Assembly: GCF_009914755.1 (NCBI RefSeq)
Contig: NC_060928.1
Source of the DNA: the human T2T-CHM13v2.0 reference genome, Homo sapiens
Length of the DNA stretch: 64,000 bases
Strand: one strand, 5' to 3'
This document shows, piece by piece, positions 1,013 through 46,492 of this stretch; position 1 is the stretch's first letter, and each line of letters opens with the position of its first letter. The notes under the pieces are model-generated. The model worked only from the letters and a program-made list of their open reading frames with translations, ran no database searches and was not told the DNA's origin. The position numbers and the translations under genes are program-made.

Positions 1013-1135
1013 AAGCAGAAACAGCAAAACGTATTGATATAGATGTGAGGGATTGAGGGATGTGGATGTACACAATAACTCAAAGCATTCTGCCTTGCAC
1101 AACTTGGTAATGGTGATTGCATTAATAGATAAGTG

Positions 1136-1486
<351 letters not shown>

Positions 1487-1972
1487 TTATAATAGACACT
1501 GTGGTGCTTTGCACCATCTCTTCTTTGCCCAAGTGATTTCAGCACTGCTCTGGTAAGCAGTTCCATGCACATTGCTAGGGTCCCATCTTAATGAGAAGAT
1601 GTGCATTGTTGCTTTCCTACTTCAGGGCTTTCTCCTAAGGCACACGTATTCCAAACCAACACACAGATGCAGCCTGGAAGTGGGAGGAAAAGGAATCAAT
1701 GGATCATTGCTCCTACTTCCCCATCCTACTCAGATACTGTTTTCAGGCAGTTTCTACAGGGAGCCCAATATGTCCCAGTGGATCTGAGCCCCAGTTGCTG
1801 TTGCTGTTAACCAGTTTAATAATGTACCCCACTCGTGCCTCTTTTGTCTTTTTTTTTCCATTTCTGCTTTCATTCTCTGAAAGCTCTTTTTTTTGTCCTG
1901 ATTCTTAGAGTAATCTTCCAAATAAAATATATATTAATATACCCAATCTTTGTCTCAGGTTTTCATCAAAAC

Positions 1973-2796
1973 TACAGACAGTTTTCAAAAGAAGACATAC
2001 ATGCGGCCAACAATCATATGAAGAAAAAGCTCAATGTCACTTCTCATTAGAGAATGCAAATCAAAACCACAATGAGATACCATCTCACAGCAGTCAGAAT
2101 GGCTATTACTAAAAAGTCAAAAAATAACAGATGCTGGCAAAGTTGTGGAGAAAAAGGAATGCTTATACACTGTTGGTGGGAGTGTAAATTAGTTCAACTA
2201 TTGTGAAAGACAGTATGGCAATTCCTCAAAAACCCAAAGACAGAACTACCATTCAGTTGAGCAATCCTATTACTGGATATATACCCAAAGGGATATAAAT
2301 AATTATATTATAAAGACACACGCACATATTTATTTGTTCATTGCAGCACTATACACAATAGTAAAGACAGGATTGCCAACCCAAATGCCCATCAATGATA
2401 GACTGGACAAAGAAAATGTGGTACATATATACCATAGAACCCTATGCAGCCATGAAAAAGAATGAGGTCAAGACCTTTGCAGGGACATGGATGAAGCTGG
2501 AGGCCATTATGCTAAGAAAACTAATGCAGGAACAGAAAGCTAAATACCCCATGTTCTCACTTATGAGTGGGAGCTAAATGATGAGAACACATGGACGCAT
2601 AGAGGGAAACAACACACACTGGGGCCTATTGGAGAGTGGAGGGTGGGAGGAAGGAGAGGATTAGGAAAAATAACTATTGGGTACTAGGCTGAATACTTGG
2701 GTGATGAAATAATCTGTACAACAAACTCCCGTGACATAAACCTATGTAACAAACCTGCACATATATCCCTGAATTTAAAATAAAAGTTAAAAAAAG
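1973..2796 (+). mobile_element. L1PA 3' fragment (ORF2 C-terminus + 3'UTR)
   Basis: ORF2 peptides FSKEDIHAANNHMKK and MIDWTKKMWYIYT..., G-rich 3'UTR, aataaaagttaaaaaaa end. Confidence 0.93.
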
Positions 2797-2852
2797 GAAA
2801 ATATATGGAATATTTAGGACATGCAAAGTTTTAGGAATCTTTGGGAAATTTA

Positions 2853-3192
<340 letters not shown>

Positions 3193-4242
3193 AGAAAGTT
3201 AGAAATTAATTAGTGTCACCTCAAAAGTAGCTGTCTTTTCCATTTCTTGATCCATTCTGCTCTTCATCTTCCAGAAACTGCTTTCTGCCACTCATTTACA
3301 TTTGTCATTGTTTCTGTGCTTTTTCTCCTATTTTACTAGTTTTTTAAAAAAGTCAGAGATCTTAAGAAAGTTCACTGAATAGAAAGTTTGTCTAAAATAC
3401 CTAAACTTTCTCTTCCTCAAATGGATCATTTGTGACTATATAAAGCTCTAGCTTTTTTTTCAGCGACTCTTCTGTCCTTCATGAGTTTCTGGCCAGAGGG
3501 CCATATCTAATTTGCTTCTCAATATAATTGCTCTGAATAATGGTATGTTCTCTACCTTCTCTGCAACTTTATTTCATCAAATAAAAAAAAACAGTATCCT
3601 TTAAATAGAATGTGAAAAAACTTAAAGATATTTTGGCTCAGCCTGGTCTTGTCAGTCTAAGAGAGATTTACTCTTGTAACAAAGAGGTAGGTTTTCTTTT
3701 CTTTTTTTTTTTTCTAAATACCTCTAGGAACCCATTCTGTCCATGTGTCATATCTTATTTGATGCACGATGTCAGAAATGTGGTTGAAATCTGGAAAAAA
3801 TCCTGGATCTTTGGCACTTTTTCAAAGGCTAAAAGAAATCTTTGCAGAACTGAAAGCTGTCATTTGTGTCCAGGGAGGAGTAAAATTGTTCTGCTTAAAT
3901 CCAAATTGTTGTTTCAAAGAGAACAAAAATGAAAAGTTTGGAAGATAAAATGATGACTAATCCACTCTTGTAAGTTAGAGTACTCTTATTCTTTTTGATT
4001 TAGTAGATGCTGTGATCATGTTTCTTTATACTAATCCTCCTGCAAGCATAATGATCCCCATCTCCTGGGATATCATTTTCCCCCTATGCTTTGTTTCTCC
4101 CTGTTTTATACCTACCTCTATTGTATTTTTCAGAAATATTTTTTTCTGTGAATTGTATCTTCATCATAAAGTTTAGAGGACTTATTAATTTCACTTAAGT
4201 TTAAAGAGAATCATTAGAAATTGGACAGTTAAAAGATATTAA

Positions 4243-4564
<322 letters not shown>

Positions 4565-4881
4565 TAATTTTAAATAAAGAATTTAATTTTTTATTAAATT
4601 CTGTAGAAGAAACTAGAATAATCTGATGTTGAGGTTGAAAAATATCAGAAATATCTTCATTATTATCCTAAGTTTATATATAAGAAAATGAAGGTTCATG
4701 CAATTTAAATAATATGTCCAAAGCCATATATGAATAATCAGCATTACTAGAACTAAAACACACTCTTTCTGTCATTTAATATTGTTTAATTTAATTGAAT
4801 CAATTTAATATGATCAGTAAACCCTGAGATTAAGAGGAGGCACAAGTGACATTTTCTTGCTGATCCTGTTTATGTTATGAC

Positions 4882-5182
4882 TTTTTTTTTTTCTTTTTTT
4901 AAAGATGGACTCTCACTCTGTTGCCCAGGCTGGAGTGCAATGGCGCTATTTTGGTTCACTGCAACCTCCGCCGCCTGGTTCAAGTGATTTTTGTGCCTCA
5001 GCCTCCTGAGTAGCTGGGATCACAGGTGTGTGCCACCACACCCGGCTAATTTTTGTATTTTCAGTAGAGACAGGGTTTTACCACGTTGACCAGGCTGGTC
5101 TCAAACTCCTGGCCTCATGTGATCTGCCTGCATAGGCCTCCCAAAGCACAGGGATTACAGGCGTGAATCACCGTGCCTGGCC
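4882..5182 (-). mobile_element. Alu (AluS-like)
   Basis: Poly-T, reverse Alu ending ccgtgcctggcc. Confidence 0.95.
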
Positions 5183-5206
5183 TCTATCTAGTTTTTAAAA
5201 GGTTTT

Positions 5207-5510
5207 AACTGAGTGTGGTAGCTCATGCCTGTAATCCCAGCACTTTGGGAGTCTGAGGTGGGAGAATCCCTCGAGTTCAGGAGTTTGAGACCAGCCTGGA
5301 CAACAGGTGAAAACCCATTTCTACAAAAAATACAAAAATTTGCTGGGCATGGTGGTGGGAGCTGGTAGTCCCTGCTACTCTAAAGGCTGAGGTGGGAGGA
5401 TAGCTTGAGCCCAGCAGGTGAAGGTTGCAGGGCGCCATGATGGCTCCACTGCACTCCAGACTGGGCAACAGAGGGAAACTTTGTCTCAATAACAATAATA
5501 ATAATAATAA
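5207..5510 (+). mobile_element. Alu (AluJ-like) with (AAT)n tail
   Basis: Alu dimer followed by aataacaataataataataataa. Confidence 0.95.
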
Positions 5511-6608
5511 CTTTTACATATTTTGCATTTTATAGATGAGATTGACACATGGAGAGGGTAACTTGCCCAACCATGTGGTTAATCAATGGCAGAGCCAGAA
5601 CTAGCACTGACTTATATGTGCATTTGCTTATTCATGCAATAAATATTTTGAGTGCATTATCTGTTGCAGGCATTATGCTAGGTAATGGGGATTCAATTAA
5701 ATAATAAACAAAATAGAGTCTCCAATGGCATAAAGTTCATAGTAGGCCATGACTGGGCTGCTACATATCAATGATGATGGAAACAAGAGAATTCAAGAGC
5801 GTTTCATCGTGGAGTAGCAAGAATTCCTAGCTGATAGAACCTTCGGTGCTGGTGTGGCCTTTTCCCCCTAAAAAGCATAGACGGTGGTAGTGTTATGTTT
5901 TTGTTTTTTCAGTTTTTTATTTTTATTTTTTGGCTCCTCTTACCCCATTAGTACTTTAAAGGACTGACTAAATCAACATACTTTGCACACACCAACCAAT
6001 ATGAAGAACTTAGGAAGAAATAAGCAGTCACATACAGTCCTTCATAAATTCATGTGATGCATGCCCTTTACTTATTTGCAGGTTCTATGGTAAAGCAAAA
6101 TGAAAGAAACCTTTGCTATTGTCTGAGTTGCCTCTTTTGCCAGTTTTCGAACCCAGGCCAAATTTTGTGGGCCAGCCTAGCTTAGAGCATATTGTTCAGT
6201 AAAAACTACTAAAAAGTTCAGTAGACTGTAGAATCTAACTCTAGACGGAGTGAGACTAGAGGCAGATGTTGTGTCATTTGTTAGTTGGGCAATAAGTTCA
6301 TACAAAGAAGGTTCCACATTTAACTTCATTTACATACTTTATAAATCACACTGTTGATTTGCAGTTATGCACTCTGACTCTTACTTCTCACAGCTTTTAT
6401 CTAATTACCAGAGAAGTGGGTGGGTGGTTAATTTAAAATTTAATGACAAGAATTAGGCTTCTTTTAACCTAGTACCTTAAAAGAATTGTTAAAACAAATG
6501 ATGTTCTTTAGAGAGAATAGAGGACCAATCAACATTCAACTCTTTTTTTTAGCTGAGTCAGTGTGGGAGACAGACATTAGACAAATAGTCCAATAAAAGC
6601 TATAAGTT

Positions 6609-6638
6609 TATATATATATTATATATATATATATATAA
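6609..6638. repeat. (TA)n microsatellite
   Basis: Interrupted tatatata run. Confidence 0.9.
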
Positions 6639-7899
6639 ATGTATATAGATAAAATTGTGATAATCAAGGATACTTTAAAAAGAAGAGAATACTTAGAAAC
6701 ACATCATGGAAGAACTTAGGTGTAGATTCGTCTCGATTTGGGGTAGGGGATGAGTCAGGGAAGGCTCTCGTGAGAAAATGGCTTTTAAGCTCAGATATTA
6801 GAAAAGTAAATAAAAGGGAAGAAATTAATCAAAAAAGTTGTGAGAAGTGAATGCTTCATTGCAGAAGACAGAAGTACATCTTGGAAGACAGAACTTCTGA
6901 TATTTTTCCCCATTCTTCATGTTTTCCATTTGAAGGACTGGGCCAGGAACACTTTATCATTCAAATTATGTTACATATTTCTTAGTGCCAATTGAAACCA
7001 AATTAAGATCTTGATTGTGGTGACAGCTACATGACTAAGCATTTGTCCCAACTCAGATCCACATGCCAAAAAGAATGACTTTTACTATATATAAATTTCA
7101 AATAGAAATAAAACCAAAATAAAAGAAAATACAAATTAAGTTTACACCATTGACTACTGTTGTCCAGTTGCTCTTTCACCTTCATACTAAAAAGCAACAA
7201 GTAAAATATGAGTGTGCACAGGATTATGTGTGTTTCATCAAAACTCTAATCTCTCCCTTGCTATTAAAATGTTTGCTCTTGTCTGATTTTTTCCATTTCA
7301 AACACAAGAGGGACTCTTTAATATAGCTTTAATATGTAGACAGGCTAGGAAATCCCCAAAAGAAAAATGTGTTTTGTAACATACTGATTTGACAAATGGA
7401 GTGTCATTCTAAGGCTTCATTCTGGCACTACCTGACAGGCACCTTTGTTATCTAGAAGAAATATGGCTACACTTGCTGGTAGAACACATAATGCAGGTAC
7501 CAGAAAGTCATCACTCCAGTAATGACAAGACACCAGAGATCATTATTTCCTAGCCTGAAAACCTTGTGTACCATTGTTAAAATGGAGGCCTGTCATTTTA
7601 CTGTATGTCATCTGATGACATTATCTCTGATATTTATGACAAAGGAAGCACCTTGTGACTTTTACCACTCAAATTAAATAGCATTTTTTAATCTTTCACT
7701 GGATTGAAGAAATCTGACTTAGGAAAGGAAAGCCCATTTAGATACATTCGTTGACTTGCGTTGAAATGTGAATTCCTCTCTCCTCCAAAAAGATATCCTC
7801 CAGAATCTCCAAGGAGGAGAAAGAGGGATTCTGTTTTGATAGTTAATGGTCGTGAGGCTTACAAGTTCCCAGAAACTGACAATACTGCTTTGTTTATAG

Positions 7900-8080
7900 G
7901 CATTAGCACCTTAATTTTCACAGCAATAATTGAAACCGTACTCTCTGAGGCAGAGGTTATTGGTGTTTCAATTTTGCAAAAGAGGAAATTAAGGTCCAGA
8001 GAGGTCAAGAAACTTGCTCCAGGTGGCAGAGCCAGGAAGTGTTCTGAGCGTTGTGCATGTCACGGAGGCTCGCATGCTTT
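7900..8080 (-). mobile_element. MIR fragment
   Basis: attttgcaaaagaggaaattaaggtccagagaggtcaagaaacttgc matches the MIR core in reverse. Confidence 0.65.
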
Positions 8081-8428
8081 ATCTTCTAGGGTCAGATGTG
8101 CTGCTGGAGAGGGATAATGCTGCATAGCTCACCCAAGCAGCTGCCAGTGCTGATGCTTAGATGTGTGCTGATTTCTTCCTGTCAGATGCTTGAATCTTGT
8201 GTCAATTCATATTAGGACCTTAGTATTTCCTGCTTCTCAGCATTAACATTTCCTGTAATAAGCTTCTTGTGATTCCCTTTAAGGACCTCCAACCGAAGAG
8301 TCCCCCAGAGTTTTGCTTAGTTAACAATCCTGCTTTCAGTGGCAGTATATTAACTATGAAACAATTGCAAAGGAATAGTATAAGAGTTTCCCTCTGCCTT
8401 ATTAATAAATAAAAAGGTAATACAAATC

Positions 8429-8751
8429 TTTTTTCTTTTCTTTTTTTTTTTTTTTTGAGAAAGGGTGTTGCTTTGTTGCCTAGGCTGGAGTAGGTGCAGT
8501 CACAGCTTACTGCAGCCTTGAACCCTTGGGCTCAAATGATCCTCCCACCTCAGCTTCCTGGGTAGCTGAGACTGCAGGCTCAGGCCACCAGGCCCAGATA
8601 ATTAAAAAAAAAAAAAAAAAAAAAACTTTGGTAGAGATAGGGGGTCTCACTATGTTGCCCAGTCTGGTCTCTAACTCCTGGGTTCACATGACCCTCTTGC
8701 CTCTGCCTCTGAAAGTGCTAGGATTACAGGCATGAGACACCACATCCAGCC
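8429..8751 (-). mobile_element. Alu (AluJ-like)
   Basis: Poly-T, diverged reverse Alu with an A-run in the middle linker; near-TSD acaaat(t)ctt. Confidence 0.93.
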
Positions 8752-8823
8752 ACAAATTCTTAATAGCAATTTCAAATGTTAATAACAAACCCATGGTGAT
8801 CTTTCACATTGATATAGACTCTT

Positions 8824-9078
8824 TTTATTTTTTTGAGACAGAGTCTCACTCTGTTGCCCAGGCTGGAGTGCAGTGGCGTGATCTCGGCTCACTGTAACCT
8901 CTGCAGTAGCTGGGATTACAGGTATGTGCCACCACGCCCGGCTAATTTTTGTATTTTTAGTAGAGACAGGGTTTTGCCATGTTGGCCAGGCTGGTCTCGA
9001 ACTCCTGACCTCAGGTGATCCACCTGCCTTGGCCTCCCAAAGTGCTGTGATTATAGGCATAAGCCACTGTGCCCGGCC
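8824..9078 (-). mobile_element. Alu (AluS-like) with an internal deletion in the right monomer
   Basis: aacctctgc|agtagctggg junction lacks about 38 bp of consensus; near-TSD tgatatagactcttt / tgataaagactcttt. Confidence 0.93.
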
Positions 9079-10964
9079 TGATAAAGACTCTTTATGATTC
9101 TTCTGTTTCTTAAAACATGTAATCTTTTTAATTTTTAATCTTAGCCATGCTCAAAACTTTTACTAATATGACTTGCTATAGTAAACATACAGTACTGTTG
9201 CTTATCTTTCTCCAACAAATCAAAGTACATAGTAAGTAAAGAGGCCTGAAAGTACTTTTTAAAACTTTAAAAAGTAATCATATATGAGGAAAACAAAGTT
9301 GAGAAGGTTGTATCTTGGTTTTACTAATGGAGAAACTGAGGTGAAAATGGGTTGAAGTTTGTTGCAGCTTAGCCACTGCAAAGTTTAACTCAATCAGGGT
9401 GAAGTTATTTTAAGACACATAGCTTTAACTACCATGGAATGAGGGTATCTGCTATAAAGGTATTCTGATATGGAAACCTGAAGTGAACTCCCTTTCTTTT
9501 AGAGAGTGGACAGGTTATCATTATGGATCAGAGCCAAAAGAGATGACACGTTGGTGACATTTGTTACCTTTATATAGTTCTGGCAACAACAACAAAAATA
9601 CTACTATTTGAAGAAGATGGTTGAAAATGCAGATGGACTTCTTTAATTATCTTCCTTTCCTTTAGTGTTGTCCTTCAAAATAAGGTAGATAAATTTCATT
9701 CATTCTATAATCCACAAATATTCACTGTAACTGTCTTTCAGCTGCTGAAATACCAACAGAGAATCATATCAACCTTGTAAAAAGCTATTGGACCAAGCTC
9801 TTCTGCCACGAAAAACAAAGAAGATGATTAATTTTATTTGCTTTACTGTTTGCATTTCCCTAAGACACAATGAACTGATTAAAATACTTTTGTACTCATT
9901 CATTAGGCTTTTTTGTATATTAAGGTGCATTATTTTGACATACTTACCACATAATTATATTTGTGTAATGATTTCACATTCATAGTCATGCGTGTGTTAT
10001 TTTCTTCTCACAACAAAGCATACCAGAGGAAAAGTTATAACTCCCATTTTTACAGAGAACAAAAATAAGGCTTTGGAGTTTGACCATGGCTATGCAGCTA
10101 CTCTGAGTGTGTGTGTATGTTTATATGTGGGAGTGGGCTATAGAATTAGACTTCATGTATATTGGTTTCTACTAGCACTTTCTATATTCCCCGTGCTATC
10201 TTTACAAAATGAACTAAGTTTTGAAGCACCACAAGCTTCTACTCAGCCCTGCTGGCATTTTCAGGACATCTGGATGACAAGGTTTTCTTTGTTTTGCTTT
10301 GAATTGTGGGTACCGCAAAGAACCAGTAGCATTTCTGGCACACGTTCCAATTTTCTGATTCAAAATCTCTCTGTCTATTTGATGTTGCTACTACGAAATT
10401 CATATAGAAAAAGACGTTAAAAGGTTAAGTGGTTTTGGTGTGTGTAAGAACAAGGGTGAACACCCTACTGCTTCTCCTTTTTTTCCTGGATTCCTCTCAC
10501 ATTTACCTACTTCATTTATGGGGTAGAGAGGGATGGGTGGAGTTGTAAAAGAAACATAATAAAAGCAGAGGGAAATAAGAGCAGCACCTCTGAGGAAATT
10601 TCCTGCATTCAAAAATTATAGGCTGGAATAAAATGTCTGGATTAGAATTTTGTTTCTCCTCATTCTACTCTGCCTGAAGCCACATGGAGTAAAGCTGAGG
10701 TTCCTGAGAAGTGAAAGTTCTTGACAATGAAGCCGAAATAATGTATCTCAAGCTGGAGAGCAGACCCTCAATCTTCAAATGTATTATTTATTCAAAGAAT
10801 AATTATTGGGTACCAACAATATATCAAGTATCATTCTCGGTGTTTGGTAAATACTTGTGAACAAAAGAAAGATTTTTACCCTCTGAAGCTTACATGCTAG
10901 CAGGGAGAAACAGACAATAAGCAATAAATGTAATACGGAAGAATGTTCCCTTGTGGGTTAGAAG

Positions 10965-11175
10965 GTGATGAGTGCAGCAAAACAAAGTTATAAAAGCATT
11001 ACTCCTAGAGCTAGACTGTCCGAATTCAAACCTTAGCCCCACCACTTCCCAACTGTGTGACTTGGGTAAGTTATTTACCCTCTCTGTGCCTCATTTTCTT
11101 ATGACCTATAAAATAGACAAGGCAATAGTGCTGGAATATCTGGCTTATAGTAAGAACTCTGTAACTGCTTATTCA
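10965..11175 (+). mobile_element. MIR
   Basis: ctgtgtgacttgggtaagttatttaccctctctgtgcctcattttc MIR core. Confidence 0.8.
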
Positions 11176-11374
11176 AAAATAATTACTGTGGAAAAATTTA
11201 AAAGATAAGCAGTATGGATGTGAGTGACTCTATAGAGGGTGTAGGTATCATTTGAGGGGAAAATACGTGAGCAAAGACTTAAGGAGGAGAAGGAGTTAGC
11301 CAGACAAATATATTGGGGATGAGCAGTCCCAACAGAGGACATGGCCCTTGTGAATGTGGGAAGATGAGAGTCTA

Positions 11375-11800
<426 letters not shown>

Positions 11801-11830
11801 AATTGATTGTTGGTTTAAAGAAGAGGAGTG

Positions 11831-21016: not shown

Positions 21017-21087
21017 TCCCGGTGCCAGCGCGGAGATCCGCTCGGGTGGCCTCTCTCTTCCCCTCTCCCCTTCTCTTCCCCGAGGCT

Positions 21088-21204
21088 ATGTCCACCCGGT
21101 GCGGCGAGGCGGGCAGAGCCAGAGGCACGCAGCCGCACAGGGGCTACAGAGCCCAGAATCAGCCCTACAAGATGCACTTAGGACCCCCGCGGCTGGAAGA
21201 ATGA
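21088..21204 (+). CDS. Upstream ORF (38 aa) whose stop overlaps the FGF5 start codon
   Basis: ATG 21088, second in-frame ATG 21172, [38 protein letters not shown]; TGA 21202-21204 overlaps ATG 21201-21203. Confidence 0.8.
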
Positions 21205-21555
21205 GCTTGTCCTTCCTCCTCCTCCTCTTCTTCAGCCACCTGATCCTCAGCGCCTGGGCTCACGGGGAGAAGCGTCTCGCCCCCAAAGGGCAACCCGGAC
21301 CCGCTGCCACTGATAGGAACCCTAGAGGCTCCAGCAGCAGACAGAGCAGCAGTAGCGCTATGTCTTCCTCTTCTGCCTCCTCCTCCCCCGCAGCTTCTCT
21401 GGGCAGCCAAGGAAGTGGCTTGGAGCAGAGCAGTTTCCAGTGGAGCCCCTCGGGGCGCCGGACCGGCAGCCTCTACTGCAGAGTGGGCATCGGTTTCCAT
21501 CTGCAGATCTACCCGGATGGCAAAGTCAATGGATCCCACGAAGCCAATATGTTAA
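21201..21555 (+). CDS. FGF5: FGF5 coding exon 1 (signal peptide, Ser-rich region, start of FGF core)
   Basis: [24 protein letters not shown]...[34 protein letters not shown]; 355 nt; donor A|GTAAGT; NGS sequon. Confidence 0.99.
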
Positions 21556-22053
21556 GTAAGTTACTCGCTCTCCTACAAAACCCGTCCTAGGCGGCCGCGG
21601 AAGATTCGGGAGGGACAGCAGGTATTCGCCGGGACACAGGCTCACCTTCCTGAGCCCAGGCCACTGGGACCAAGCTGATACTCAGAAACAGCCGGGCGGG
21701 TTGGGTGGAGATGCATCTATATGGCGTGCGCACAAGCACCCCTCTCCTGGGCATGAGGAATTGCGATTTCTCAGGTGTATGTTACCTAGAGGCTGGTGCC
21801 CAGACGGGTACCTTGTTTTCAGTTTGCTCTAGCCTCAAAGACGAGTCCCCAGCCATGACAGGAGAGAACAAAAAACTCATTTCTTCTCACTCAATTTGTT
21901 TACCTTCTGCTTATGAACTAGCCTGGCATTTTTCATTAGGCATCAAAGGCAGCCCTTCTCCCTATCCATAACTGAAGTTATTTTTTGAAAAGAAGAATCA
22001 AATCCCAAATACTTCCCTCTTCCATCCGCTACCATAAACCTCAAATTAATATT

Positions 22054-22162
22054 GTATATGTATATGTATATATGTATATAAGTCTATGTATACAATGTAT
22101 ACACATAGGTAGATAGATAGATAGATAGATAGATACACAGATAGATAGACAGACAGATAGAT
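22054..22162. repeat. Compound (TA/TG)n and (GATA)n/(GACA)n microsatellite
   Basis: gtatatgtatatgtatatatg... then agatagatagatagatagatagat...gacagacagatagata. Confidence 0.9.
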
Positions 22163-22704
22163 AACTAGGGGACACCAGACAGACATTCCTGCTTGGAAGA
22201 AGATTGTGCTCTAGAAAACTGGACGCGTTTAGAGAGGGAGACATGATAAACATTGAAATTACTAACTCCAGAGTTGGATTTAACAATGTTTAGTATCTTG
22301 AGACCATGACTACACCGTATTAGGAGAGTGGCCAGCCTTTGGTCCCCAAGAACAGTTAGGGGAAAGTTCCTTATTTTAGAAGAAACGCAGAGGTTAAATT
22401 TGGTAGGGGTGCAGATTTTGTAGGACTTTTTATAAACAAAGTTTTAAATTTTCCCTCTGAGTTTTTTCTTTCAGCACGCTCTCTTTTTTCCTTTCTCATC
22501 TCCTCTTCCCTTCCACCCCATCTATGTTTCCAGACCATCGCAGCCACTCCTCTGGTTTCTCTTCACTGCCTCTAGGCAGCTGGGGGCAGGGACGGTTTGG
22601 GGCTGTGAGTAGGAGTGGGGAGATCTCTGTGGGGCTTTTGCTCAGTAGGGCCAGATCGCTCTTCCAGCGCGGGTTGGTCCACCAGGCAGAGCCCCAGCCA
22701 GGGC

Positions 22705-22836
22705 CTGTCAGGTACCCAGGGAGACCGGAAATGTAGCCAGGAGACAGCAGCGCTCACAGTCACCTGGTTTCAGTGTCAGCCTGGTTGCTCCTAGATGTTC
22801 CTAACTTGCTCCATCTCAGACCAACGACTCCACGGG
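22705..22836 (+). repeat. Long inverted repeat, left arm
   Basis: Reverse complement of 23454-23586; 124/133 aligned columns identical by hand alignment. Confidence 0.97.
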
Positions 22837-22859
22837 CCATTGGGCTCCTTCTTACACAG

Positions 22860-22944
22860 GCTCCAGAGGAGCGTGGACACCACCGGCGGTCTGAAGATTT
22901 GGCAGCCAGCAGTCTCCAGAGGGGGGTCGGAGGCGCGCAAGTGG
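22860..22944 (+). other. Candidate 85-nt cryptic/poison (or alternative first) exon of FGF5
   Basis: Acceptor ctccttcttacacag|G, donor TGG|GTAAGG; in-frame TGA at 22892-22894 when joined to exon 1. Confidence 0.45.
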
Positions 22945-23453
22945 GTAAGGCGGTAGGCTGGCTAGCCTCCTCCGGTGGGTTAAGGGGGCCTAATGCGGAA
23001 GACCTGATGGTTCATGCTGAGAGAAAAGCAGGTCTATGCCCGCCCCTCTGCGCCTGTCTAGTCTATCTGATCGCGCTGATTCAGCAGCCTGCGGCGCACG
23101 TGGTGAGGGCGCCTGGAGCGCCCAGCTGGAGAGAGGGCCCTCCGCACACGCACCAGCGAGTCCCAGGGCCTCCCTCACACTCCCGAGAGGAATCTATTTC
23201 CATATTTTAGAGTTTATTTCACTCATCGAATAACTGCTCATTTGGGGGATAAAGGGCAAGATCTGTTGGGGTGAAATGGAATTTTCTGAGATTTGAGGAA
23301 TAATCAGTAACATCTATTTATTTCCATTCGTCCTTCTCATTTTGTCTCAACGGTCTTTTGACTCCATCAGCCATCACAGCTTATTCCCACTTCCGGCAAC
23401 CTTTCCTTCTCTCTTACAAGAAAACTTTCTTTCTTCTGTTCTTCTTGTAACGA

Positions 23454-23586
23454 CCCGTGGAGTCATTGGTCTGAGATGGAGCAAGTTAGGAACATCTAGG
23501 AGCAACCAGGCTGACACTGAAAGACAGGTGACTGTGCGCGCTGCTGTCTCCTGGCTATGTTTCCACTCTCCCTGGGTACATGACAG
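23454..23586 (-). repeat. Long inverted repeat, right arm
   Basis: Perfect 57-bp core 23466-23522 pairs with 22768-22824; the ORF track shows the same peptide SAWLLLDVPNLLHLRP on opposite strands. Confidence 0.97.
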
Positions 23587-26500
23587 AGCACCAACAGAGG
23601 ATAACTTCCGTGAGCTCAAGGGCGGACCCCAAACTAGCAGGCAGCAAGCAGCAGGTTGGAGCCCAGGGAGCTCAGAGAATGCTTCTGGGGAGGGTTTAGG
23701 TGTGCTAGAGATCTCAGAAAGCAAGGCTCATTCCCAGGATATTCACCATCTTCTCTACGAAGACACTATATGAGACGAAGGTAGTTTTACAGCTTAGGCC
23801 TTGCTAGAGGGGGTGTTGTAGAAAAGCAAAGGGGGGAAAATAAGAGCAGATCAAAAAGAGTGCACCCAGATAAACAAGACATTGACCACTACCCAGTATG
23901 TAACATGTACATTTTCTTTTAAAATCCATGTTGAAAGATATCTACAAGAGAACAGGGATGTTTCCTAAAACAGTGCCGACAAAAAGCTTAATTTAAACTT
24001 TTTCCTAATTTATTCTTGTTTACAATAACCTTTCAGAGTTTAGTTTCTGTGTCTTTCACATGACTTGCTTTCATTCATGCCATAAATCATGTACCCAATA
24101 TAAGATACCTATCTCACTAAGCATGATATTTTGGTTACTTTTGTGTTGTTTGTCTTCCATAGAGTTTTTTTTTTTTTCCCCAGAAGAAAGCATAGCAAAT
24201 ATTCAAATCATAGTAATTTTCTGCTTTGTGATATCTGGAGTGTCTAATACTACTTCATAAAATTTTTACTACCTTTGATCAATGCAGAATTTGCATGTAA
24301 TTTGGGAATTTAACATGGATCTCTGCCATTACCTAGCTGTAAAAGAGAAACAGAAACTTGCTAATTACAATTGGTCATTTACCTCTTTGAAGGCAGTAGT
24401 TGATGTTTCCTGACATTCGTGTAAACTAAGGTGTTGGCCATGGCCTTTCTTAGAGTATGTGAGGAAATGTGTTTAAATCTCCTAAGAGAGGCTGAGAGGG
24501 CTGGATCAAGGGCCACAGAGGATACCTCAGTTTGATCTCATCTTCTATTTCTACTGTATGTGAGTTAGTGATGATAGAAAACCTATTCTTTTTGTTACAA
24601 CCCTGATACTTCAGAAAAGTCAAAGCTTTGCCATGAAACTGCATTCTAACAAGTTATTTTAAACCTAATAATATTCTGTAGTATTTGTCTGATAGAACAG
24701 ATAATCATATGTGTTTCGCAAACTATTATTTGACAGTAAACTTTTTTTTTTTTTTTTGCAAATTGCAAATGTTTTCTGGTTTCACCATGAGAAGTGCACC
24801 ATGGCCATGGACTTTCAAACATAATTTGTTTAGTTTACATGGACCAATTAATATACTCTTAGCTTCTCTTACACAATAATTATCCCAAGTTTTGAACACA
24901 GAAAATGAAATCAAGCTCATTGTATATAAATCCTTATTATGAGGAAATACTGTGGAAAAATGAAGAAATATGAACAAGGCAAGATAGATGACCCAACTAT
25001 TGCATGGAAACAAATGGTTTGGTTTAATTTATACGCCTTCAAGTTTAATGTCAATACAGTGCTTCTGTTGACTTACCTTGGGCCATTGAAGAATAGGCAA
25101 TCAAGTAGTTGTCAGTTTAGGGAAGAAAAGTTTAAGGCTTTGTCAAAGCGTTTACATAAAATATGAAAATTCCAAGCACATATTTTGGTTAATAGAATCG
25201 TCGATGTTACTGCTTTTTAAAAAAATCTAAATTCACTACCAATTTTGGGGTCATGTGGAGTCATTAGACAGTCCCCCAAGCCTAGATAAATCAGAATCTA
25301 TATCTACTATGCAGAAAAATCAAGTGGAAAATTTCTGTTGCTAATTTAATCAGTGAAGACTGCTAAACTGAATATTTCAAGATTCAGATTTCATAACTTG
25401 GCACAGCATATCTGTTACTTTGTGGATGCAAGTAGAGAAACTTCAGTTTTAAAATATTTTTGTCTGGGGATTTTCAGATGGGTTGTTGAAAGCTTCTGAA
25501 TACATGGAATATCTGTGCTTTTCTATATTTTATTCATTAACAAAAGAGAGAAAAAGGAAAAATGTGTATAGTTGTATCAACCACTATCAGTAGAGCCCTA
25601 TTATATTAAGAAATCTGCAGAGGACTAAGTCAAAAATCTAGAAATATGTTTTTTTTTACGGAAGTAAGCTTACATCATAATGCATAAGTGGAATAGACTG
25701 TGTGTATAAGCTGAGAGACACCAAGACATTCTTGCCTTCTTCAGCCTAGGTGTCAATGCTGAAATTCCACAAAGAGAGAATAATTCCTTCTGTTAAGCAT
25801 TCTCCTCTTCTTTTGACCCTCTTAAATGGGAACACCTTAAGAAAAATAACACACTGTCTGTAGCACTTTAATGTGAATTTATTTACACTGAGCCACCCGT
25901 CCACCCCGTGCCTTCTCAAGCAGGAGAAGGCCACAGTAGCAGGAGAGTACTAAGACACCTGTCCATACTTGTGTATGCATGGGGTGTCCTGACAAGAGAA
26001 AAGAGAGGTAGTGAGAGGATCAAAGAAGGCAGTCAAATTTAGCAAACAGTCATTGACTATATACCATCTACAAGACAAGCTTGGCCTTCCACAGTTTGGC
26101 TTAGAAATACTGCCTTGGCATCCATAAGGAGAATTGTAAGTTTCCATCAAATTTAATATGCGTGACTCCCGATGATAAAGGTCAGAAAATTACTGAAATT
26201 AAAAAAAATCAATGTCAGAGAAATGTTTTCAGAAATTTATATATTTGTGATTTAAGGCACATGGGTTTAAAAAATTACGTAGAATTCCTGAATGAGTTAC
26301 TGAGATTTGTCATAGCAAAATCAATAGGCCTGTGATGTTTTGGGGAGGAGGGCAGGAAACTGAACTGTGAGACTCATTGAATCTGCTCCAGAAAACAAGG
26401 CATTGTGAAATCACTGCTGACATTACTTTGGAAATTATGATCATAACAGTGTTCTTAATATTAGGTCATAATTACGGTAAGATTTAGAAGATCAATACCA

Positions 26501-29287: not shown

Positions 29288-29391
29288 GTGTTTTGGAAAT
29301 ATTTGCTGTGTCTCAGGGGATTGTAGGAATACGAGGAGTTTTCAGCAACAAATTTTTAGCGATGTCAAAAAAAGGAAAACTCCATGCAAGT
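29288..29391 (+). CDS. FGF5: FGF5 coding exon 2 (104 nt, skipped in FGF5S)
   Basis: Acceptor atcctag|GT, encodes (S)[34 protein letters not shown], donor |GTAAGT; 104-nt middle exon typical of FGF genes. Confidence 0.99.
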
Positions 29392-35325: not shown

Positions 35326-36348
35326 AAATTATGTAAGTGAAGAAAAGAGATCCTGTAGTTGATATTCTTTACTGCATTATCTCAGGTTGGGTGATATTAA
35401 AGCCAACTTGTGTATTTTGTTGGTTGCTCAGTATGAAGAACTGAGATATAGAAGGAACGAATGTCCAGTACCAAGCAGGAGATATGGCCGTGCCTGGGAG
35501 ATAGCATGGCAAGGCTACAACTGACCCATACACAGCTTATATAGTAAAGAGTAAGAAGTAGCCCTCTGGGTGCTTGCTATCCTGTACCAGGGCACAAGTA
35601 TAAAAAACGAACTGAGTTTAGGGCACCTGTCCCAGGCAGCTCCATTGGTGGAGGGAAGGGATGGGAACCAAGCAGGTCTAAAAGGAGGGAGGGGAATTAG
35701 AAGTGATGCATGTGACAAGGAAACTTAGTTTAGAGCAAAATTTGGTCTATAGTTGTTTTTATTACAGTCTATGATAACCTTTTTGTTATTTAATAATATT
35801 AGTCTATAACAACATTTTGATTATTTATATTTGGCTTTTTTTCCCTTAACTTTATAAGGTTTTTCAGGAGAAAGGGGCAAATCAAAGAAAACAAGCTGAA
35901 ATAAATCATTAAAATTGATTAAGTACACACAAATTCCAAGGTTTATACTGGTGTCTGTTCAAATTCACTCCTATTTCTATATCTCATATCCTACATATTT
36001 AGTTCTGTAGTTGCACGCAAGAGTCGGTATTTGCACAGCTTTAATTCATACTATACAAGGTACTCAATCATCATAGATGGTGATATTTACTAAGGAACAA
36101 AACCACAAGAAGGGATTTTAGAGAGATTTTTTTAAACAATATCATTTTGGAAATAATTTATTTGGTTTAATTGACCTGTTTAATTTTGGCTTGGCAGAAT
36201 TAGTCATTTCTGGAATATTGTAGTTAATCGGAGTTGTGCTTTCTTTGAATTCAATTTGACCGTTCAAAAAATATCTGTTGTTTAAAATTGATCCTTCACT
36301 GTGAGAAGGGGTGAGGAGAGCCACAGTTTACTTCTAGTGAAAAAGTTC

Positions 36349-36640
36349 TTTTTTTTTTTGAGATAGAGTTTTGCTCTTGTTGCCCAGGCTAGAGTGCAAT
36401 GGTAGGATCCCAGCTCACTGCAACCTCCGCCCCCTGGGTTCAAGCGATTCTCCTGCCTCAGTCTCCTGAGTAGTTGAGATTACAGGCGCGCACAACCACA
36501 CCTGGCTGATTTTGTATTTTTAGTACAGACAGGGTTTCACCATGTTGGTCAGGCTGGTCTCGAACTCCTGACCTCAAAAGATCCACCCGCCTTGGCCTCC
36601 CAAAGTGCTGTGATTACAGATGTGAGCCACCGTACCCAGC
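36349..36640 (-). mobile_element. Alu (AluS-like), intron 2
   Basis: Poly-T + reverse dimer; TSD aaagttctt. Confidence 0.95.
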
Positions 36641-38531
36641 AGAAAGTTCTTATTTCTCTTAATAGTAGTGTGTTTCCTCTCCTTGTAATAATCTGGATAT
36701 TCAAGAAAAAATAGTTCGATTTGTTTAAAGTTCTTTTTTTTTTGTCAATTAGGAGTATATACTAAAGTACAAAAAACGCTGATTTTAAACATTTCATTTT
36801 AATTTTGCAATTATGGTTTGTTGAATGTAACCTGTTATTATTCTTGCCAGATCAAGGAGAAATTAAAGAGATTTTAATGTAATTTAAGTCAACAAAAACA
36901 TGGGCAGGACCATGTTAATACTGTTTTCCACTGTAAAAGTGGCACCTAGCACAGTGCCTGGCATGTGATATCTGTGGAATAAATTAGTGAAAAATGAATA
37001 TGAAACTTTTTAAACAAATATTTAAACAATTGCTTTCATTGTAGTGGCTGATGGTGGTAAGGCAATTAGATGAAGGAGTCTTGATTTCAGCAACTTATCT
37101 GAAATTTGATTCATCTCTCTACTTCATACTCTTTAACTATAGAAAAAGTCTGTTAATTTCAGGGTTTTTTTTCTAGAAAAATAATGGAGTTCTATCATTT
37201 TAAAAGTGTATATTTTATTAGAAGACTTATAATTTAAAAAAAAGATTTAAAAAATAAAAATCAGCCTGGAAAATTTATTGTCCAAAATTTTCTAATGGTA
37301 AATGTATGTATTTTAGTACCTCTAGCTAAGACCTATGACTCTTTGCTATAAAGATGGTCCATGCACAACATTATGTATAGAGATATACTGCTTAGGGTCA
37401 CCATCTTGTCTGAGCCAGACCGGGAATACTAACAGGAATAGTCAATCCTTCAAGATGAGTAAATTCACTGAAATGTTTGTTTCAAATGATTCTGTGTTCC
37501 ATCACAGCTGGAATAATTTTTCAGACAAAACATTAAATTAAAAGTTAATTAAGAAAGCCAAAACAGTCTAACTGCGTTTACTCCCGTATTAATGTAGAAT
37601 GTAGGATTTGGATGGCTGAGGGGCTGTGTGTACTGTGTAGATCCTTAGAACTCTACACACTTCTACCCTGGGTAACAGTTAGGTGACCTTTGAAAAATCT
37701 GAAGTCCAAATAGCCATCTCCATAAAGGGCTCCTCTTAAGAAAGAACTTTAGAATATGAATCTCGAGGAAAAGAGGAGGAAAAGAGAAAGATTTTAGATG
37801 AAACAATTGTAGGGGGTGGGGCAGGTGGGTTTCACTCATATGAAAGATCCTAAAATGGAAATGATATAGATTCCTGTTTTAAAAAAAGAAATGCTGTGGT
37901 GTGTGTCTGCACATGCACCTGTGCATGAGTGTGTGTGTGCCTGTCATCTACATTAGTTAAAAATGACATGTTCTTTCTTTATTTTCTTGGGCACTGTTGG
38001 GGGAAAATATTAAATAATGTAGTACATTGTAAAAACCTAACTCTGTCAAAATTGAGTAAAGCAATCACCGCTGTTTTTGTGAAACAGAGCTGGAAGTCAG
38101 ATCAAGGCATAATGTATTACACATTTTCAAAAATGTCATTCAACTGCATTTTAAGAAAAAAAAAACCCGAGACAAGATAAATATACCTGATACTCTTTTT
38201 AATGAAATGTTTCACACCTTTGTAAAATTCTTGTGATCTGTTTATAGAGCCAGAAACATTCTAGATGTCTATAGCTTTTATTTTGAAATAAAATGTTGGG
38301 ATTATCTAATTAAATGGGAAAACCATTTTAAGAGCTAAGCAGCTGTAGACAAATCTACAATGAATTTGTAAGCAAGTCTTTCTAATAAAAAATAGGAATA
38401 GTCAATGTGTGGTCTTCGAAAGTGATGTCAGCATAGCAGTCCGGGCCTAAATGCAGGCTGGCAAGGTGTATCGTAGACAGGGTGAAAGGGATGCCATACA
38501 TAGGTGGTGATTGTTTATAATACCTGCCTTC

Positions 38532-38932
<401 letters not shown>

Positions 38933-39579
38933 CTACATATATGGCTTCATAACCTGCCAATGGAACTTTGTTGATTGAACTACACTTAAATATAAGTAAC
39001 TCCAGTAAACTATTGTACATAAAGTGAATGTGCTGTTGGAAATGCTCTGATATTGGTTGGCTTCTACTACTGTCAGTAACCTGCACTGCTCAAAAACTCC
39101 ATGTGGACTTCAACAGTGGATCTATGTAGATTGCCTTGCAATATTCAGATTTTTAGATTTCTGTGTTATGATCAGTATTTCAAAGAAAAGTTTGGCATTA
39201 TTAGAAAAAACAAGGAAAAAAAGGCCATTTTATTCCCGTATAAAACTTCTTGGTTTGATATAGAAGTATGTAGCTTTTAGTGTTTTTATATATAGGGGAC
39301 AAAATATTTGGTATTCTCAAACACGGGAATTCTGTGTAAATAGTACTCCTTGAAATTATGAAACCTGGTAGTCTTAACTAGTACAGGAATTCTTAATTCT
39401 TTGGGGGTTATGGGCTCTTTCAAGTTTGATGAAAGCTACAGAATCCTCCTTTGGATTCTCATAACAGCCCTATTGTTGTAAGTGTTATGGATAAGGAGGC
39501 TAAGGCTAAGAGCTTAATTGGCAGAACTGGTTTTTGATTGCATGTCTGACTCCAAGTTCACACTCTTCCCCCATTCTCC

Positions 39580-40030
39580 CACATATTCCTTCAAATTTTA
39601 CAACATGGCAAACTAAGCTCTTTCAGAGCTGGTGCTGACCTACATTGTCTGGCTCATCTCCTTACTTCCCACATGCATCCTAGGTAGAGGTCACGCTGAA
39701 CTACTTACAGGTATTTGAAAGTGTCATGTTGACCTTTCAACACCCTGTTCCTTCTCCCTGAAAATCCTTTCTTATTTTGCCTTCCTCTCTAATGCTAGTT
39801 AGAGAACATTCCTAGTTGTACTTGAAGACTCAGCTCAAATGTCACCTTTTATAGGAAGACTTTTCTGCCCTCTTCTTGGCCACCTCCACCCTCTTAGATG
39901 CCCTTCCTCTATGCTGTCATTGTACCCTCTGCATACCGCTGTCATAATTCCATTTATCAAGCTGCACCATGACGGATGTCTACTTGTCTGCTTTTCCACT
40001 ATTCTGTAAGCATTTCAAGGGCAGATATTT
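39580..40030 (+). mobile_element. L2 fragment
   Basis: aagactcagctcaaatgtcacc...ggaagacttttctg and ctgtaagcatttcaagggcag L2 3' motifs. Confidence 0.6.
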
Positions 40031-40703
40031 TGTGTGTGTGTAAGATCTGGCCAAAGTGTAGTTAGTAACTCGAGTGACTTTTTTCTTCTTGGAGTTAGAT
40101 ATACTTTCCTGTAATGCCTGAGTAAAGATACGTTATTTTTTTCTAAAGAACTCTAACACGTGCAATATTAATGGGGGCCATATGCTACTTCTCTCTCAGC
40201 AGCCTCAATCACACTGATAACATTGAAAAAATGCAAGCTTGTTTCAAAGGAATAATTTTGACCCCATTTCTGTGAACAGGAATTTATATTTTACCAGGCA
40301 ATCATTTCTTAGTAATATAGTTCCATTTATTTTCTTAGTGAGTTAGGAGGAAAAACAGTATGTAAAAAGATTTGTAACTATACATTTCAAAGTATTTAAA
40401 CAATAGTAACAGGGTTTAAATGTATCAAGAGTTCTGGTTACTTTTATAGTCATCGATATTATGTCACCAAGTAAGTAGGGAACAGAAATGTGTTACAAAG
40501 ATAAATGAAGTAGAAATATAGAAAGAAAAATAGTAATTTTAAAGCAACTTTAAAATAAGCAAACATGTCTTTATAAAAAGGAATTGAGTAGGAGGAACAG
40601 AGATCAACAAAATTATTGTTTTTTTTTCTACAATACCTTATGTTTTATTACATGCTGAAAAGATCGCCACAACTTAAATTTCCTCTTTTTTTCTCCTCCT
40701 TAG

Positions 40704-41051
40704 GCCAAGTTCACAGATGACTGCAAGTTCAGGGAGCGTTTTCAAGAAAATAGCTATAATACCTATGCCTCAGCAATACATAGAACTGAAAAAACAGGGC
40801 GGGAGTGGTATGTGGCCCTGAATAAAAGAGGAAAAGCCAAACGAGGGTGCAGCCCCCGGGTTAAACCCCAGCATATCTCTACCCATTTTCTGCCAAGATT
40901 CAAGCAGTCGGAGCAGCCAGAACTTTCTTTCACGGTTACTGTTCCTGAAAAGAAAAAGCCACCTAGCCCTATCAAGCCAAAGATTCCCCTTTCTGCACCT
41001 CGGAAAAATACCAACTCAGTGAAATACAGACTCAAGTTTCGCTTTGGATAA
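40704..41051 (+). CDS. FGF5: FGF5 coding exon 3
   Basis: Strong polypyrimidine acceptor ctcctccttag|GCC; [23 protein letters not shown]...[14 protein letters not shown]...KYRLKFRFG*; 355+104+348 = 807 nt. Confidence 0.99.

Positions 41052-46492
<5,441 letters not shown>

What the first reader, a model, noticed from the sequence alone, without database searches (positions are those of the whole stretch)
22800..22950. Candidate poison exon inside the inverted-repeat loop, with a branch-point motif buried in the stem
Seen: 23 nt after the left arm is an acceptor (ctccttcttacacag|G, 22860), followed by a strong donor (TGG|GTAAGG, after 22944), defining 85 nt. Spliced to exon 1 it reads S-S-R-G-A-W-T-P-P-A-V-TGA (22892-22894), upstream of two more junctions. 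A consensus branch motif CCTAAC (22800-22805) and a second acceptor (catctcag|A, 22820, giving a frameshifting 125-nt exon) lie within the perfectly paired core. Established: long-range RNA stems can loop out or mask poison exons, and such PTCs trigger NMD. Inference: stem formation suppresses the exon, while slow elongation, helicases or editing expose it and lower FGF5. Alternatively the donor serves an alternative first exon from the CpG-rich loop, giving a signal-less protein from the exon 2 Met ([10 protein letters not shown]...).
Basis: partly seen in the sequence, partly recalled or inferred. Interest (0 to 1): 0.8.

Follow-up and report, generated by a model that had tools for sequence, protein, structure and literature searches.

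The report
FGF5 intronic alternative first exon

Summary
Its arms are 22705-22841 and 23449-23586, with a 57-nt perfect core, and it is single-copy in this genome.

The donor after 22944 already belongs to a RefSeq exon, 22644-22944. That exon is preceded by TC, not AG, so it is a first exon, not a cassette exon. Spliced to exon 2 it gives a 125-aa product without a signal peptide, starting at the exon-2 Met.

The acceptors at 22860 and 22820 are unremarkable. In a crude model, 22 of 58 equally good donors in the window have an equally good acceptor 50-300 nt upstream. No transcript in the hub's table uses either acceptor. My searches of the paper library found no paper on an FGF5 poison exon, cryptic exon or inverted repeat.

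In mouse, an element in Fgf5 intron 1 less than 2 kb from the start site initiates transcription strongly but gives no mature mRNA. That fits the human annotation by position only.

Verdict: the feature is already known, and the poison-exon mechanism is untested speculation.

The parts
22644..22944 (+). Annotated alternative first exon of FGF5 (301 nt).
   Evidence: Hub annotation table ('exons of other transcripts 22644-22944'); preceded by ...ttgctc|AGTAG (no AG) and followed by |gtaaggcg.
22860..22944 (+). It is a pseudo-exon by motif only and is not annotated as an internal exon.
22820..22944 (+). Its acceptor AG (22818-19) lies in the perfectly paired core.
22892..22894 (+). In-frame TGA if exon 1 is joined to 22860.
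22800..22805 (+). CCTAAC, a branch-point-like motif in the left arm.
   Evidence: Paired with the right arm at P = 1.00.
22945..22950 (+). Intron side of the donor (GTAAGG). The donor ranks 58 of 3262 GT sites in a crude model.
22705..22841 (.). Left arm of the inverted repeat.
   Evidence: Single-copy apart from its partner.
23449..23586 (.). Right arm of the inverted repeat.
22768..22824 (.). 57-nt core, perfectly complementary to 23466-23522.
22842..23180 (.). GC-rich, moderately CpG-rich left part of the 607-nt loop (GC 0.65, CpG observed/expected 0.60).
23009..23579 (.). RefSeq functional element 'enhancer'. It covers the right part of the loop and most of the right arm.
   Evidence: Hub annotation table only. 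I did not see the underlying experiment.
22795..22797 (+). ATG in the left arm that opens a 62-codon upstream reading frame in the alternative transcript. The frame ends in exon 2.
29362..29364 (+). Exon-2 ATG. It is the first FGF5-frame start in the alternative transcript and gives a 125-aa product.
   Evidence: transcript position 376, which is 29288 + 74.
21040..21555 (+). Canonical exon 1. It ends in phase 1 with donor TAA|GTAAGT.

Best explanation
The donor after 22944 is the 5' splice site of an already annotated alternative first exon of FGF5 (22644-22944). Transcription starts inside intron 1, about 1.6 kb downstream of the main start site, at a GC-rich element next to a RefSeq enhancer. 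The exon is spliced to exon 2.

The only FGF5-frame reading frame of that transcript starts at the exon-2 Met (29362). It gives 125 aa with no signal peptide and about half of the FGF domain. I infer that the transcript is a by-product of an intronic promoter/enhancer element rather than a source of active growth factor.

The '85-nt poison exon' is an acceptor-like AG that happens to lie upstream of this real donor, at chance-level quality.

The 137-bp inverted repeat around it is a real, single-copy inverted duplication, not a transposon family. It would fold into a long stem in any RNA that spans both arms. No evidence found here shows that the stem has a function.

Shown: the motifs, the repeat, the absence of an AG before 22644, and the reading frames. 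Inferred: that 22644 is a true transcription start, that the element corresponds to the mouse intronic element, and that the product is inactive.
For: 1; 22644 is preceded by TC, so the annotated exon cannot be a canonical internal exon. The hub's table lists it among the exons of the other two transcripts.
2; the alternative exon joined to exons 2 and 3 gives a 125-aa product from the ATG at transcript position 376. Two upstream ATGs precede it: an ATG-stop at 22731-36 and a 62-codon frame from 22795.
3. Pfam FGF profile positions 69-124 of 124 lie in exon 3 and positions 1-28 in exon 1. A product that starts 10 codons before the end of exon 2 therefore keeps roughly half of the domain.
4. 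(bioRxiv 10.1101/2020.05.06.080564; passages and the whole of section 12). The mouse Fgf5 first intron holds an element less than 2 kb from the start site with a 'very strong and distinct' PRO-Cap peak, paused Pol II, and mostly short-lived transcripts. The authors 'cannot completely rule out' some mature transcript. The human site 22644 is 1,604 nt from 21040.
5; the acceptors at 22860 and 22820 rank 89 and 206 of 4350 AGs. 22 of 58 comparable donors have an equally good acceptor 50-300 nt upstream.
6. Searches, on the inverted repeat. It folds at z = -16. Arms and loop are each single-copy in the own genome. It is the only long inverted repeat among the 25 longest pairs listed for the window that lies outside the masked repeats, by comparing with the hub's masked list.
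7; of 6 transitions between the arms, 2 keep a wobble pair in the + strand RNA and 4 in the - strand RNA. There is no sign of selection for pairing in the FGF5 transcript.
Against: - I had no CAGE, PRO-Cap or RNA-seq data for human. 22644 could be the end of a 5'-truncated cDNA, and strong acceptor-like AGs lie 68 and 169 nt upstream of it (22576, 22475).
- The region around 22644 is GC-rich but CpG-poor (observed/expected 0.27-0.28 for 22500-22799), unlike a typical CpG-island promoter.
- The correspondence to the mouse element rests on position only. No mouse sequence could be compared, and the paper's oligonucleotide tables are images.
- My acceptor and donor models are crude. The true exon-2 acceptor ranks only 464 of 4350, so they cannot exclude that 22860 is used.
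- A 57-nt perfect core within arms that differ at 11 of 138 columns is uneven. That could reflect constraint or gene conversion rather than neutral decay.
Confidence: 0.7

Rival explanations
1. 22860-22944 (or 22820-22944) is a cassette poison exon of the main FGF5 pre-mRNA. The inverted-repeat stem loops it out or masks its branch point and acceptor. Conditions that weaken the stem allow inclusion, a premature stop, mRNA decay and less FGF5.
For: - All motifs are present, and the stop lies upstream of further junctions.
- The arms flank the candidate exon, as complementary regions do around the BRD2 and BRD3 poison exons. There, blocking or mutating the pairing raised inclusion and compensatory mutants restored it (PMC10789245: abstract, section 17).
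- CCTAAC and the 22818-19 AG are fully paired in the model.
- The right arm is transcribed about 500 nt after the donor, so a kinetic window exists (inference).
Against: - No annotated transcript uses these acceptors (hub table).
- The acceptors are of chance-level quality.
- The tract and AG of the better acceptor (22860) are not paired with the right arm.
- An AG lies between CCTAAC and 22860.
- FGF5 is absent from the one supplementary file held for the cryptic poison exon catalogue PMC11632617.
- The searches found nothing on it.
- The differences between the arms show no bias towards keeping + strand pairing.
Confidence: 0.08
2. The annotated exon is 5'-truncated. It is really an internal exon that begins at a stronger acceptor upstream (22576 or 22475) and is spliced from exon 1. 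That would make a 369- or 470-nt poison exon with in-frame stops, different from the one the reader proposed.
For:: 22576 ranks 34 of 4350 AGs and 22475 ranks 61, both better than 22860; with either acceptor the first stop falls in the new exon. A long pyrimidine-rich stretch lies at 22460-22575.
Against: RefSeq places the exon start at 22644 and lists no such exon. In mouse, capped nascent RNA starts inside the intronic element. Exons of 369-470 nt are long for internal exons (general knowledge).
Confidence: 0.07
3. The stem acts on RNA fate rather than on a poison exon. RNAs that span both arms, whether the main pre-mRNA or transcripts started at 22644, form a roughly 137-bp duplex. That duplex would be edited by ADAR, cleaved, or retained in the nucleus, or it would promote back-splicing of 22944 to 22860. 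Either way it would limit the output of the intronic start site.
For: -: the stem dominates the fold (z = -16; left arm paired with the right arm at P = 0.92).
- The left arm is exonic in the alternative transcript.
- Transcripts started at the mouse element are short-lived.
- Intronic structures are often associated with back-splicing, and a circular RNA matching the BRD2 poison exon was found in a database (PMC10789245, section 17).
Against: - I could consult no editing, small-RNA or circular-RNA data for this locus.
- One search found no paper on editing of human FGF5, judging from the search listing only.
- Rfam gives nothing here. Its 4 matches, all below threshold, lie in a microsatellite at 22050-22130.
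- An 85-nt circle would be unusually small (recalled).
- It is unknown whether mouse has the repeat. The mouse paper does not contain the words 'inverted', 'palindrom' or 'hairpin'.
Confidence: 0.05

Closest known systems
Alternative first exons driven by intronic promoter or enhancer elements; specifically the intron-1 'PE' amplifier element of mouse Fgf5 (bioRxiv 10.1101/2020.05.06.080564)
   Same: It lies in the first intron, within about 2 kb of the main start site. Transcription initiates inside the intron: an annotated exon start at 22644 in human, a PRO-Cap peak in mouse. An enhancer is annotated next to it (hub table).
   Different: [quoted passage not shown] Sequence orthology was not tested. 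The mouse paper mentions no inverted repeat.
Poison exons controlled by pairs of conserved complementary regions, as in BRD2 exon 3b and BRD3 exon 5b (PMC10789245)
   Same: Complementary segments flank a short stretch with an acceptor, a donor and a frame-disrupting length. A stop would lie upstream of later junctions.
   Different: The BRD2 and BRD3 exons are seen in transcripts, and their dependence on pairing was shown with antisense oligonucleotides and compensatory mutants. Here inclusion has never been observed, conservation is untested, and the donor already has another annotated use.
Intronic pseudo-exons (acceptor-donor pairs that look like exons but are not spliced)
   Same: There are 29 acceptor-donor pairs of equal or better crude score on the + strand of this 64-kb window. 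Three use the 22860 acceptor and one ends at the exon-1 donor 21555, and none is an annotated internal exon.
   Different: In this pair the donor is a real, annotated splice site.
Inverted Alu pairs that form long double-stranded RNA in introns
   Same: Arms of more than 100 nt within about 1 kb of each other are predicted to form a long duplex in pre-mRNA.
   Different: The arms are single-copy, not a repeat family, and they are more complementary (96% and 90%) than any of the repeat-derived pairs in the window (70-93%).

Membership tests
Poison (decay-inducing cassette) exon | Functional 3' and 5' splice sites on both sides | tested here: inconclusive
   The donor is annotated (hub table; rank 58 of 3262). 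The acceptors at 22860 and 22820 exist as motifs but rank 89 and 206 of 4350 AGs in a crude model that also scores the true exon-2 acceptor low. MaxEnt and SpliceAI were not available.
Poison (decay-inducing cassette) exon | Inclusion between two constitutive exons seen in transcripts | not testable with these tools
   No RNA-seq was available. The hub's table of 3 RefSeq transcripts lists no exon starting at 22860 or 22820. The searches found no report. FGF5 is absent from the supplement of PMC11632617.
Poison (decay-inducing cassette) exon | Premature stop more than about 50 nt upstream of the last exon junction | tested here: met
   With the 85-nt exon the stop is TGA 22892-94, 50 nt before the new junction and a further 104 nt before the exon 2/3 junction. 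With the 125-nt exon the first stop falls in exon 2.
Poison (decay-inducing cassette) exon | Evolutionary conservation of the exon and its flanks | not testable with these tools
   No other vertebrate genome was available. states that the own genome 'has no relatives here'.
Alternative first exon / intronic promoter | The exon start is not a splice acceptor | tested here: met
   TC precedes 22644.
Alternative first exon / intronic promoter | The donor is spliced to a downstream constitutive exon in an annotated transcript | tested here: met
   The hub table lists 22644-22944 as an exon of another FGF5 transcript. The donor is GTAAGG. I did not see the record of that transcript itself.
Alternative first exon / intronic promoter | Capped 5' ends at the exon start | not testable with these tools
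   No human CAGE or PRO-Cap data were available. The mouse intron-1 element has a strong PRO-Cap peak, but orthology is untested. The sequence ctcA(22644)gt fits the recalled initiator consensus BBCABW. That pattern is expected about once per 76 nt, so this is weak.
Alternative first exon / intronic promoter | Promoter-like base composition | tested here: inconclusive
   GC is 0.61 around 22644, but CpG observed/expected is only 0.27-0.28. The CpG-richer part (0.60) lies 200-500 nt downstream, in the loop.
Splicing control by long-range complementary regions (BRD2/BRD3 type) | Complementary segments flanking the regulated exon | tested here: met
   The arms are 22705-22841 and 23449-23586, and the candidate exon lies in the loop.
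Splicing control by long-range complementary regions (BRD2/BRD3 type) | Pairing kept in evolution (compensatory or wobble-preserving changes) | tested here: inconclusive
   Only the two arms could be compared. Of 6 transitions, 2 preserve a wobble pair in the + strand RNA and 4 in the - strand RNA. There are also 4 transversions and 1 indel. No cross-species data were available.
Splicing control by long-range complementary regions (BRD2/BRD3 type) | Disrupting and restoring the pairing changes exon inclusion | not testable with these tools
   This needs an experiment (minigene, antisense oligonucleotides).
Transposon with terminal inverted repeats | Multiple copies in the genome | tested here: not met
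   The arm query finds only itself and its partner (2 matches). The loop query finds only itself (1 match). The tool warns that its counts are lower bounds.

The most novel reading that the evidence does not exclude
The single-copy 137-bp inverted repeat is a functional RNA switch at the intronic start site of FGF5. It sets the left arm (exonic in the alternative transcript, intronic in the main one) against the right arm. The long duplex then decides one of two things. Either RNAs that cross this region are spliced productively, or they are diverted: into inclusion of a stop-bearing exon ending at 22944, or into editing, cleavage or retention of transcripts started at 22644. That would tie RNA structure to the 'amplifier' behaviour of the intron-1 element.
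Probability: 0.07. Interest if true: 0.6.

Novelty: already known. Interest (0 to 1): 0.2.

Why it matters
FGF5 controls hair growth length and is the classic marker of primed pluripotency, so a built-in switch that lowers its output would be of interest. Here the key splice site already has an annotated and more ordinary role.

What remains worth a look is the unusually clean, single-copy inverted repeat that brackets an intronic start site and enhancer. My searches found no paper describing it. If it is conserved or edited, it would be a rare long double-stranded RNA in a developmental gene that does not derive from a repeat family.

Tried and rejected
- Rfam scan of 21500-24500 at E up to 1. 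It gave 4 matches, all below threshold (mir-297 twice, mir-4510, RUF21), all on the TA/GATA microsatellite at 22050-22130. Rejected as low-complexity artefacts. Nothing matched the inverted repeat.
- Transposon origin of the repeat. Rejected because arms and loop are single-copy. I also saw no target-site duplication by eye.
- Paper searches: FGF5 with 'alternative first exon' (8 papers, none about this exon by title or abstract); 'poison exon' (2 reviews); NM_001291812 (0; the accession is one I recalled and is not confirmed by any search); 'intron 1' plus 'inverted repeat' (0); 'cryptic exon' (5, and the one I opened, PMC10571338, was irrelevant); 'alternative promoter' plus 'first intron' (4, only the mouse preprint relevant); 'A-to-I' plus 'intron' (7, none on human FGF5 editing by listing); 'inverted repeat' (6, none relevant by listing).
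- Testing orthology to the mouse element through the preprint's guide or primer sequences. Not possible, because the tables are images and bioRxiv supplements are closed.
- Proper splice-site scoring (MaxEntScan, SpliceAI). Not available, so I used crude position weights recalled from memory. Treat those as rankings only.
- Protein-database, structure and complex tools were not used. They do not bear on this question.

Full report
**The observation.**
- Canonical exon 1 ends at 21555 (TAA|GTAAGT) with one base of the next codon. Its coding part, 21201-21555, is 355 nt.
- An AG at 22858-59 follows a pyrimidine-rich stretch (ctccttcttacacag), so a candidate exon would start at 22860.
- The donor TGG|GTAAGG follows 22944, so the interval is 85 nt.
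- Joined to exon 1, the frame runs eleven codons (S-S-R-G-A-W-T-P-P-A-V) and stops at TGA 22892-94.
- CCTAAC is at 22800-05.
- A second AG at 22818-19 would give a 125-nt, frame-shifting exon whose first stop falls in exon 2.

**The inverted repeat.** It is real.
- The arms are 22705-22841 and 23449-23586, reported as a 74-nt block at 96% and a 62-nt block at 90% complementarity, with 607 nt between the inner ends.
- The two arms differ by 10 substitutions and 1 indel over 138 columns. They contain a 57-nt perfect run, 22768-22824 against 23466-23522, which holds both CCTAAC and the 22818-19 AG.
- As RNA, 22690-23600 folds at -479 kcal/mol, against -323 +/- 10 for 20 shuffles (z = -16).
- In a partition-function calculation the left arm pairs with the right arm at a mean P of 0.92.

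**What the donor is.** The hub's annotation lists 22644-22944 as an exon of another FGF5 transcript, so the donor is already annotated.
- The two bases before 22644 are TC, not AG. The exon is therefore a first exon, or a transcript 5' end, and not a cassette exon.
- Joining it in silico to exons 2 and 3 gives a transcript whose first FGF5-frame ATG is at 29362 in exon 2.
- Two upstream ATGs precede it. One is an ATG immediately followed by a stop (22731-36). The other, at 22795 inside the left arm, opens a 62-codon frame that ends in exon 2.
- Pfam places FGF profile positions 1-28 of 124 in exon 1 and 69-124 in exon 3. The 125-aa product therefore lacks the signal peptide and about half of the domain. 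I infer that it is unlikely to be an active secreted growth factor.
The annotated start is 61 nt upstream of the left arm, not in the loop, so the left arm is exonic in that transcript and the right arm is intronic.

**Is the cassette exon more than chance?** I had no MaxEntScan or SpliceAI. I ranked sites with crude position weights recalled from memory.
- On the + strand of the window, 22860 ranks 89 of 4350 AGs and 22820 ranks 206. Two AGs just upstream of the annotated exon start rank higher: 22576 at rank 34 and 22475 at rank 61.
- The donor ranks 58 of 3262 GTs.
- Of the 58 donors scoring at least as high, 22 have an acceptor as good as 22860 lying 50-300 nt upstream. 29 such pairs occur in the window.
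- The model is weak, since the true exon-2 acceptor ranks 464. That is itself the point: motif-level evidence cannot separate a used exon from a pseudo-exon here.
- CCTAAC occurs 7 times in the window, against 28.9 expected, so one copy in an arm is no signal.
- An AG lies between CCTAAC and the 22860 acceptor. By the recalled first-AG rule, the motif would serve 22820 rather than 22860.
- The tract and AG of 22860, and the donor, are not paired with the right arm in the model (P = 0.00). Only looping-out could affect that site, not masking.
- The stop codon adds nothing. An 85-nt insert shifts the frame in any case.

**Context from the literature.**
- My searches found no paper on an FGF5 poison exon, cryptic exon, alternative first exon or inverted repeat. 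For most of these papers I saw only the search listing.
[quoted passage not shown] Deleting it lowers Fgf5 about 10-fold at all time points. It accumulates paused Pol II and shows a very strong PRO-Cap peak, meaning it starts transcription itself. Those transcripts are mostly short-lived, and the authors cannot exclude some mature transcript.
- A review repeats the summary (PMC12493175, passages).
- The human exon start at 22644 is 1,604 nt from the main start at 21040, and RefSeq marks an enhancer at 23009-23579. By position, the human region looks like the counterpart of the mouse element, and the RefSeq variant looks like the occasional spliced product of its start site. Sequence orthology could not be tested.
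- Composition is mixed. GC is 0.61 around 22644 but CpG observed/expected is 0.27-0.28. The left part of the loop (22842-23180) has GC 0.65 and observed/expected 0.60.
- There is no AATAAA or ATTAAA on the + strand from 22644 to 26000.

In BRD2 and BRD3, complementary regions flanking poison exons suppress inclusion. Antisense oligonucleotides and disruptive mutations raise inclusion, and compensatory mutations restore it (PMC10789245: abstract, section 17). The FGF5 arrangement has the same topology, but no evidence was found that the exon is ever included. A catalogue of conserved cryptic poison exons from GTEx (PMC11632617, abstract) does not contain FGF5 in its one held supplementary file. 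This is a weak negative, because FGF5 is little expressed in most adult tissues (general knowledge).

**The repeat itself.**
- It is not a repeat family. The arm query finds only the two arms in the 3.1-Gb own genome, and the loop query finds only itself (the tool warns that its counts are lower bounds).
- All the other long inverted pairs listed for the window coincide with stretches the hub lists as masked repeats, and they are 70-93% complementary.
- Among the 10 substitutions between the arms, 6 are transitions. I read 5 of those 6 as CpG-decay type from the sequence contexts.
- Only 2 of the 6 transitions keep a G-U pair in the + strand RNA, and 4 would do so in the - strand RNA. That gives no sign of selection for pairing in the FGF5 transcript, on a very small sample.
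- The simplest reading is an old local inverted duplication that is decaying. The function of the stem, if any, is open.

**Verdict.** The donor's role is already annotated as the end of an alternative first exon. The structure-gated poison exon is an untested idea with low prior probability. The inverted repeat is the one unusual item, and it deserves a conservation and editing check.

Noticed in passing
window 22460-22580: A long pyrimidine-rich stretch with two strong acceptor-like AGs (exon starts 22475 and 22576, ranks 61 and 34 of 4350) lies just upstream of the annotated alternative exon start at 22644. If the annotated 5' end were truncated, these would be the likelier acceptors.
   Followed up: partly
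window 22731-22736 and 22795-22797: The alternative first exon carries an ATG directly followed by TAG, and a second ATG inside the left arm that opens a 62-codon upstream frame. That frame ends in exon 2, 64 nt before the exon 2/3 junction by my arithmetic. This could make the variant transcript itself a target of nonsense-mediated decay.
   Followed up: partly
window 22867-22944: A third AG (exon start 22867, crude score 2.04) would give a 78-nt, in-frame insert without a stop between exons 1 and 2.
   Followed up: no
window 22047-22165: A TA/TG and GATA microsatellite in intron 1. It attracts Rfam matches below threshold to mir-297, mir-4510 and RUF21, which are low-complexity artefacts.
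   Followed up: yes
window 23421-23527: The right-arm side also shows a pseudo-exon pair in the crude model: an acceptor at 23421 and a donor CAG|GTGACT after 23527, inside the right arm.
   Followed up: no
window 22644-26000: There is no AATAAA or ATTAAA hexamer on the + strand for 3.3 kb downstream of the intronic start site.
   Followed up: no
whole window: CCTAAC is strongly under-represented: 7 matches on both strands against 28.9 +/- 5.2 in dinucleotide-preserving shuffles. Unexplained. It may reflect composition differences along the window.
   Followed up: no
window 1134-11807 and 36337-43598: The other long inverted pairs listed for the window (70-93% complementary) coincide with stretches the hub lists as masked repeats. 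Those at 36378-43591 lie within FGF5 intron 2 and exon 3.
   Followed up: no
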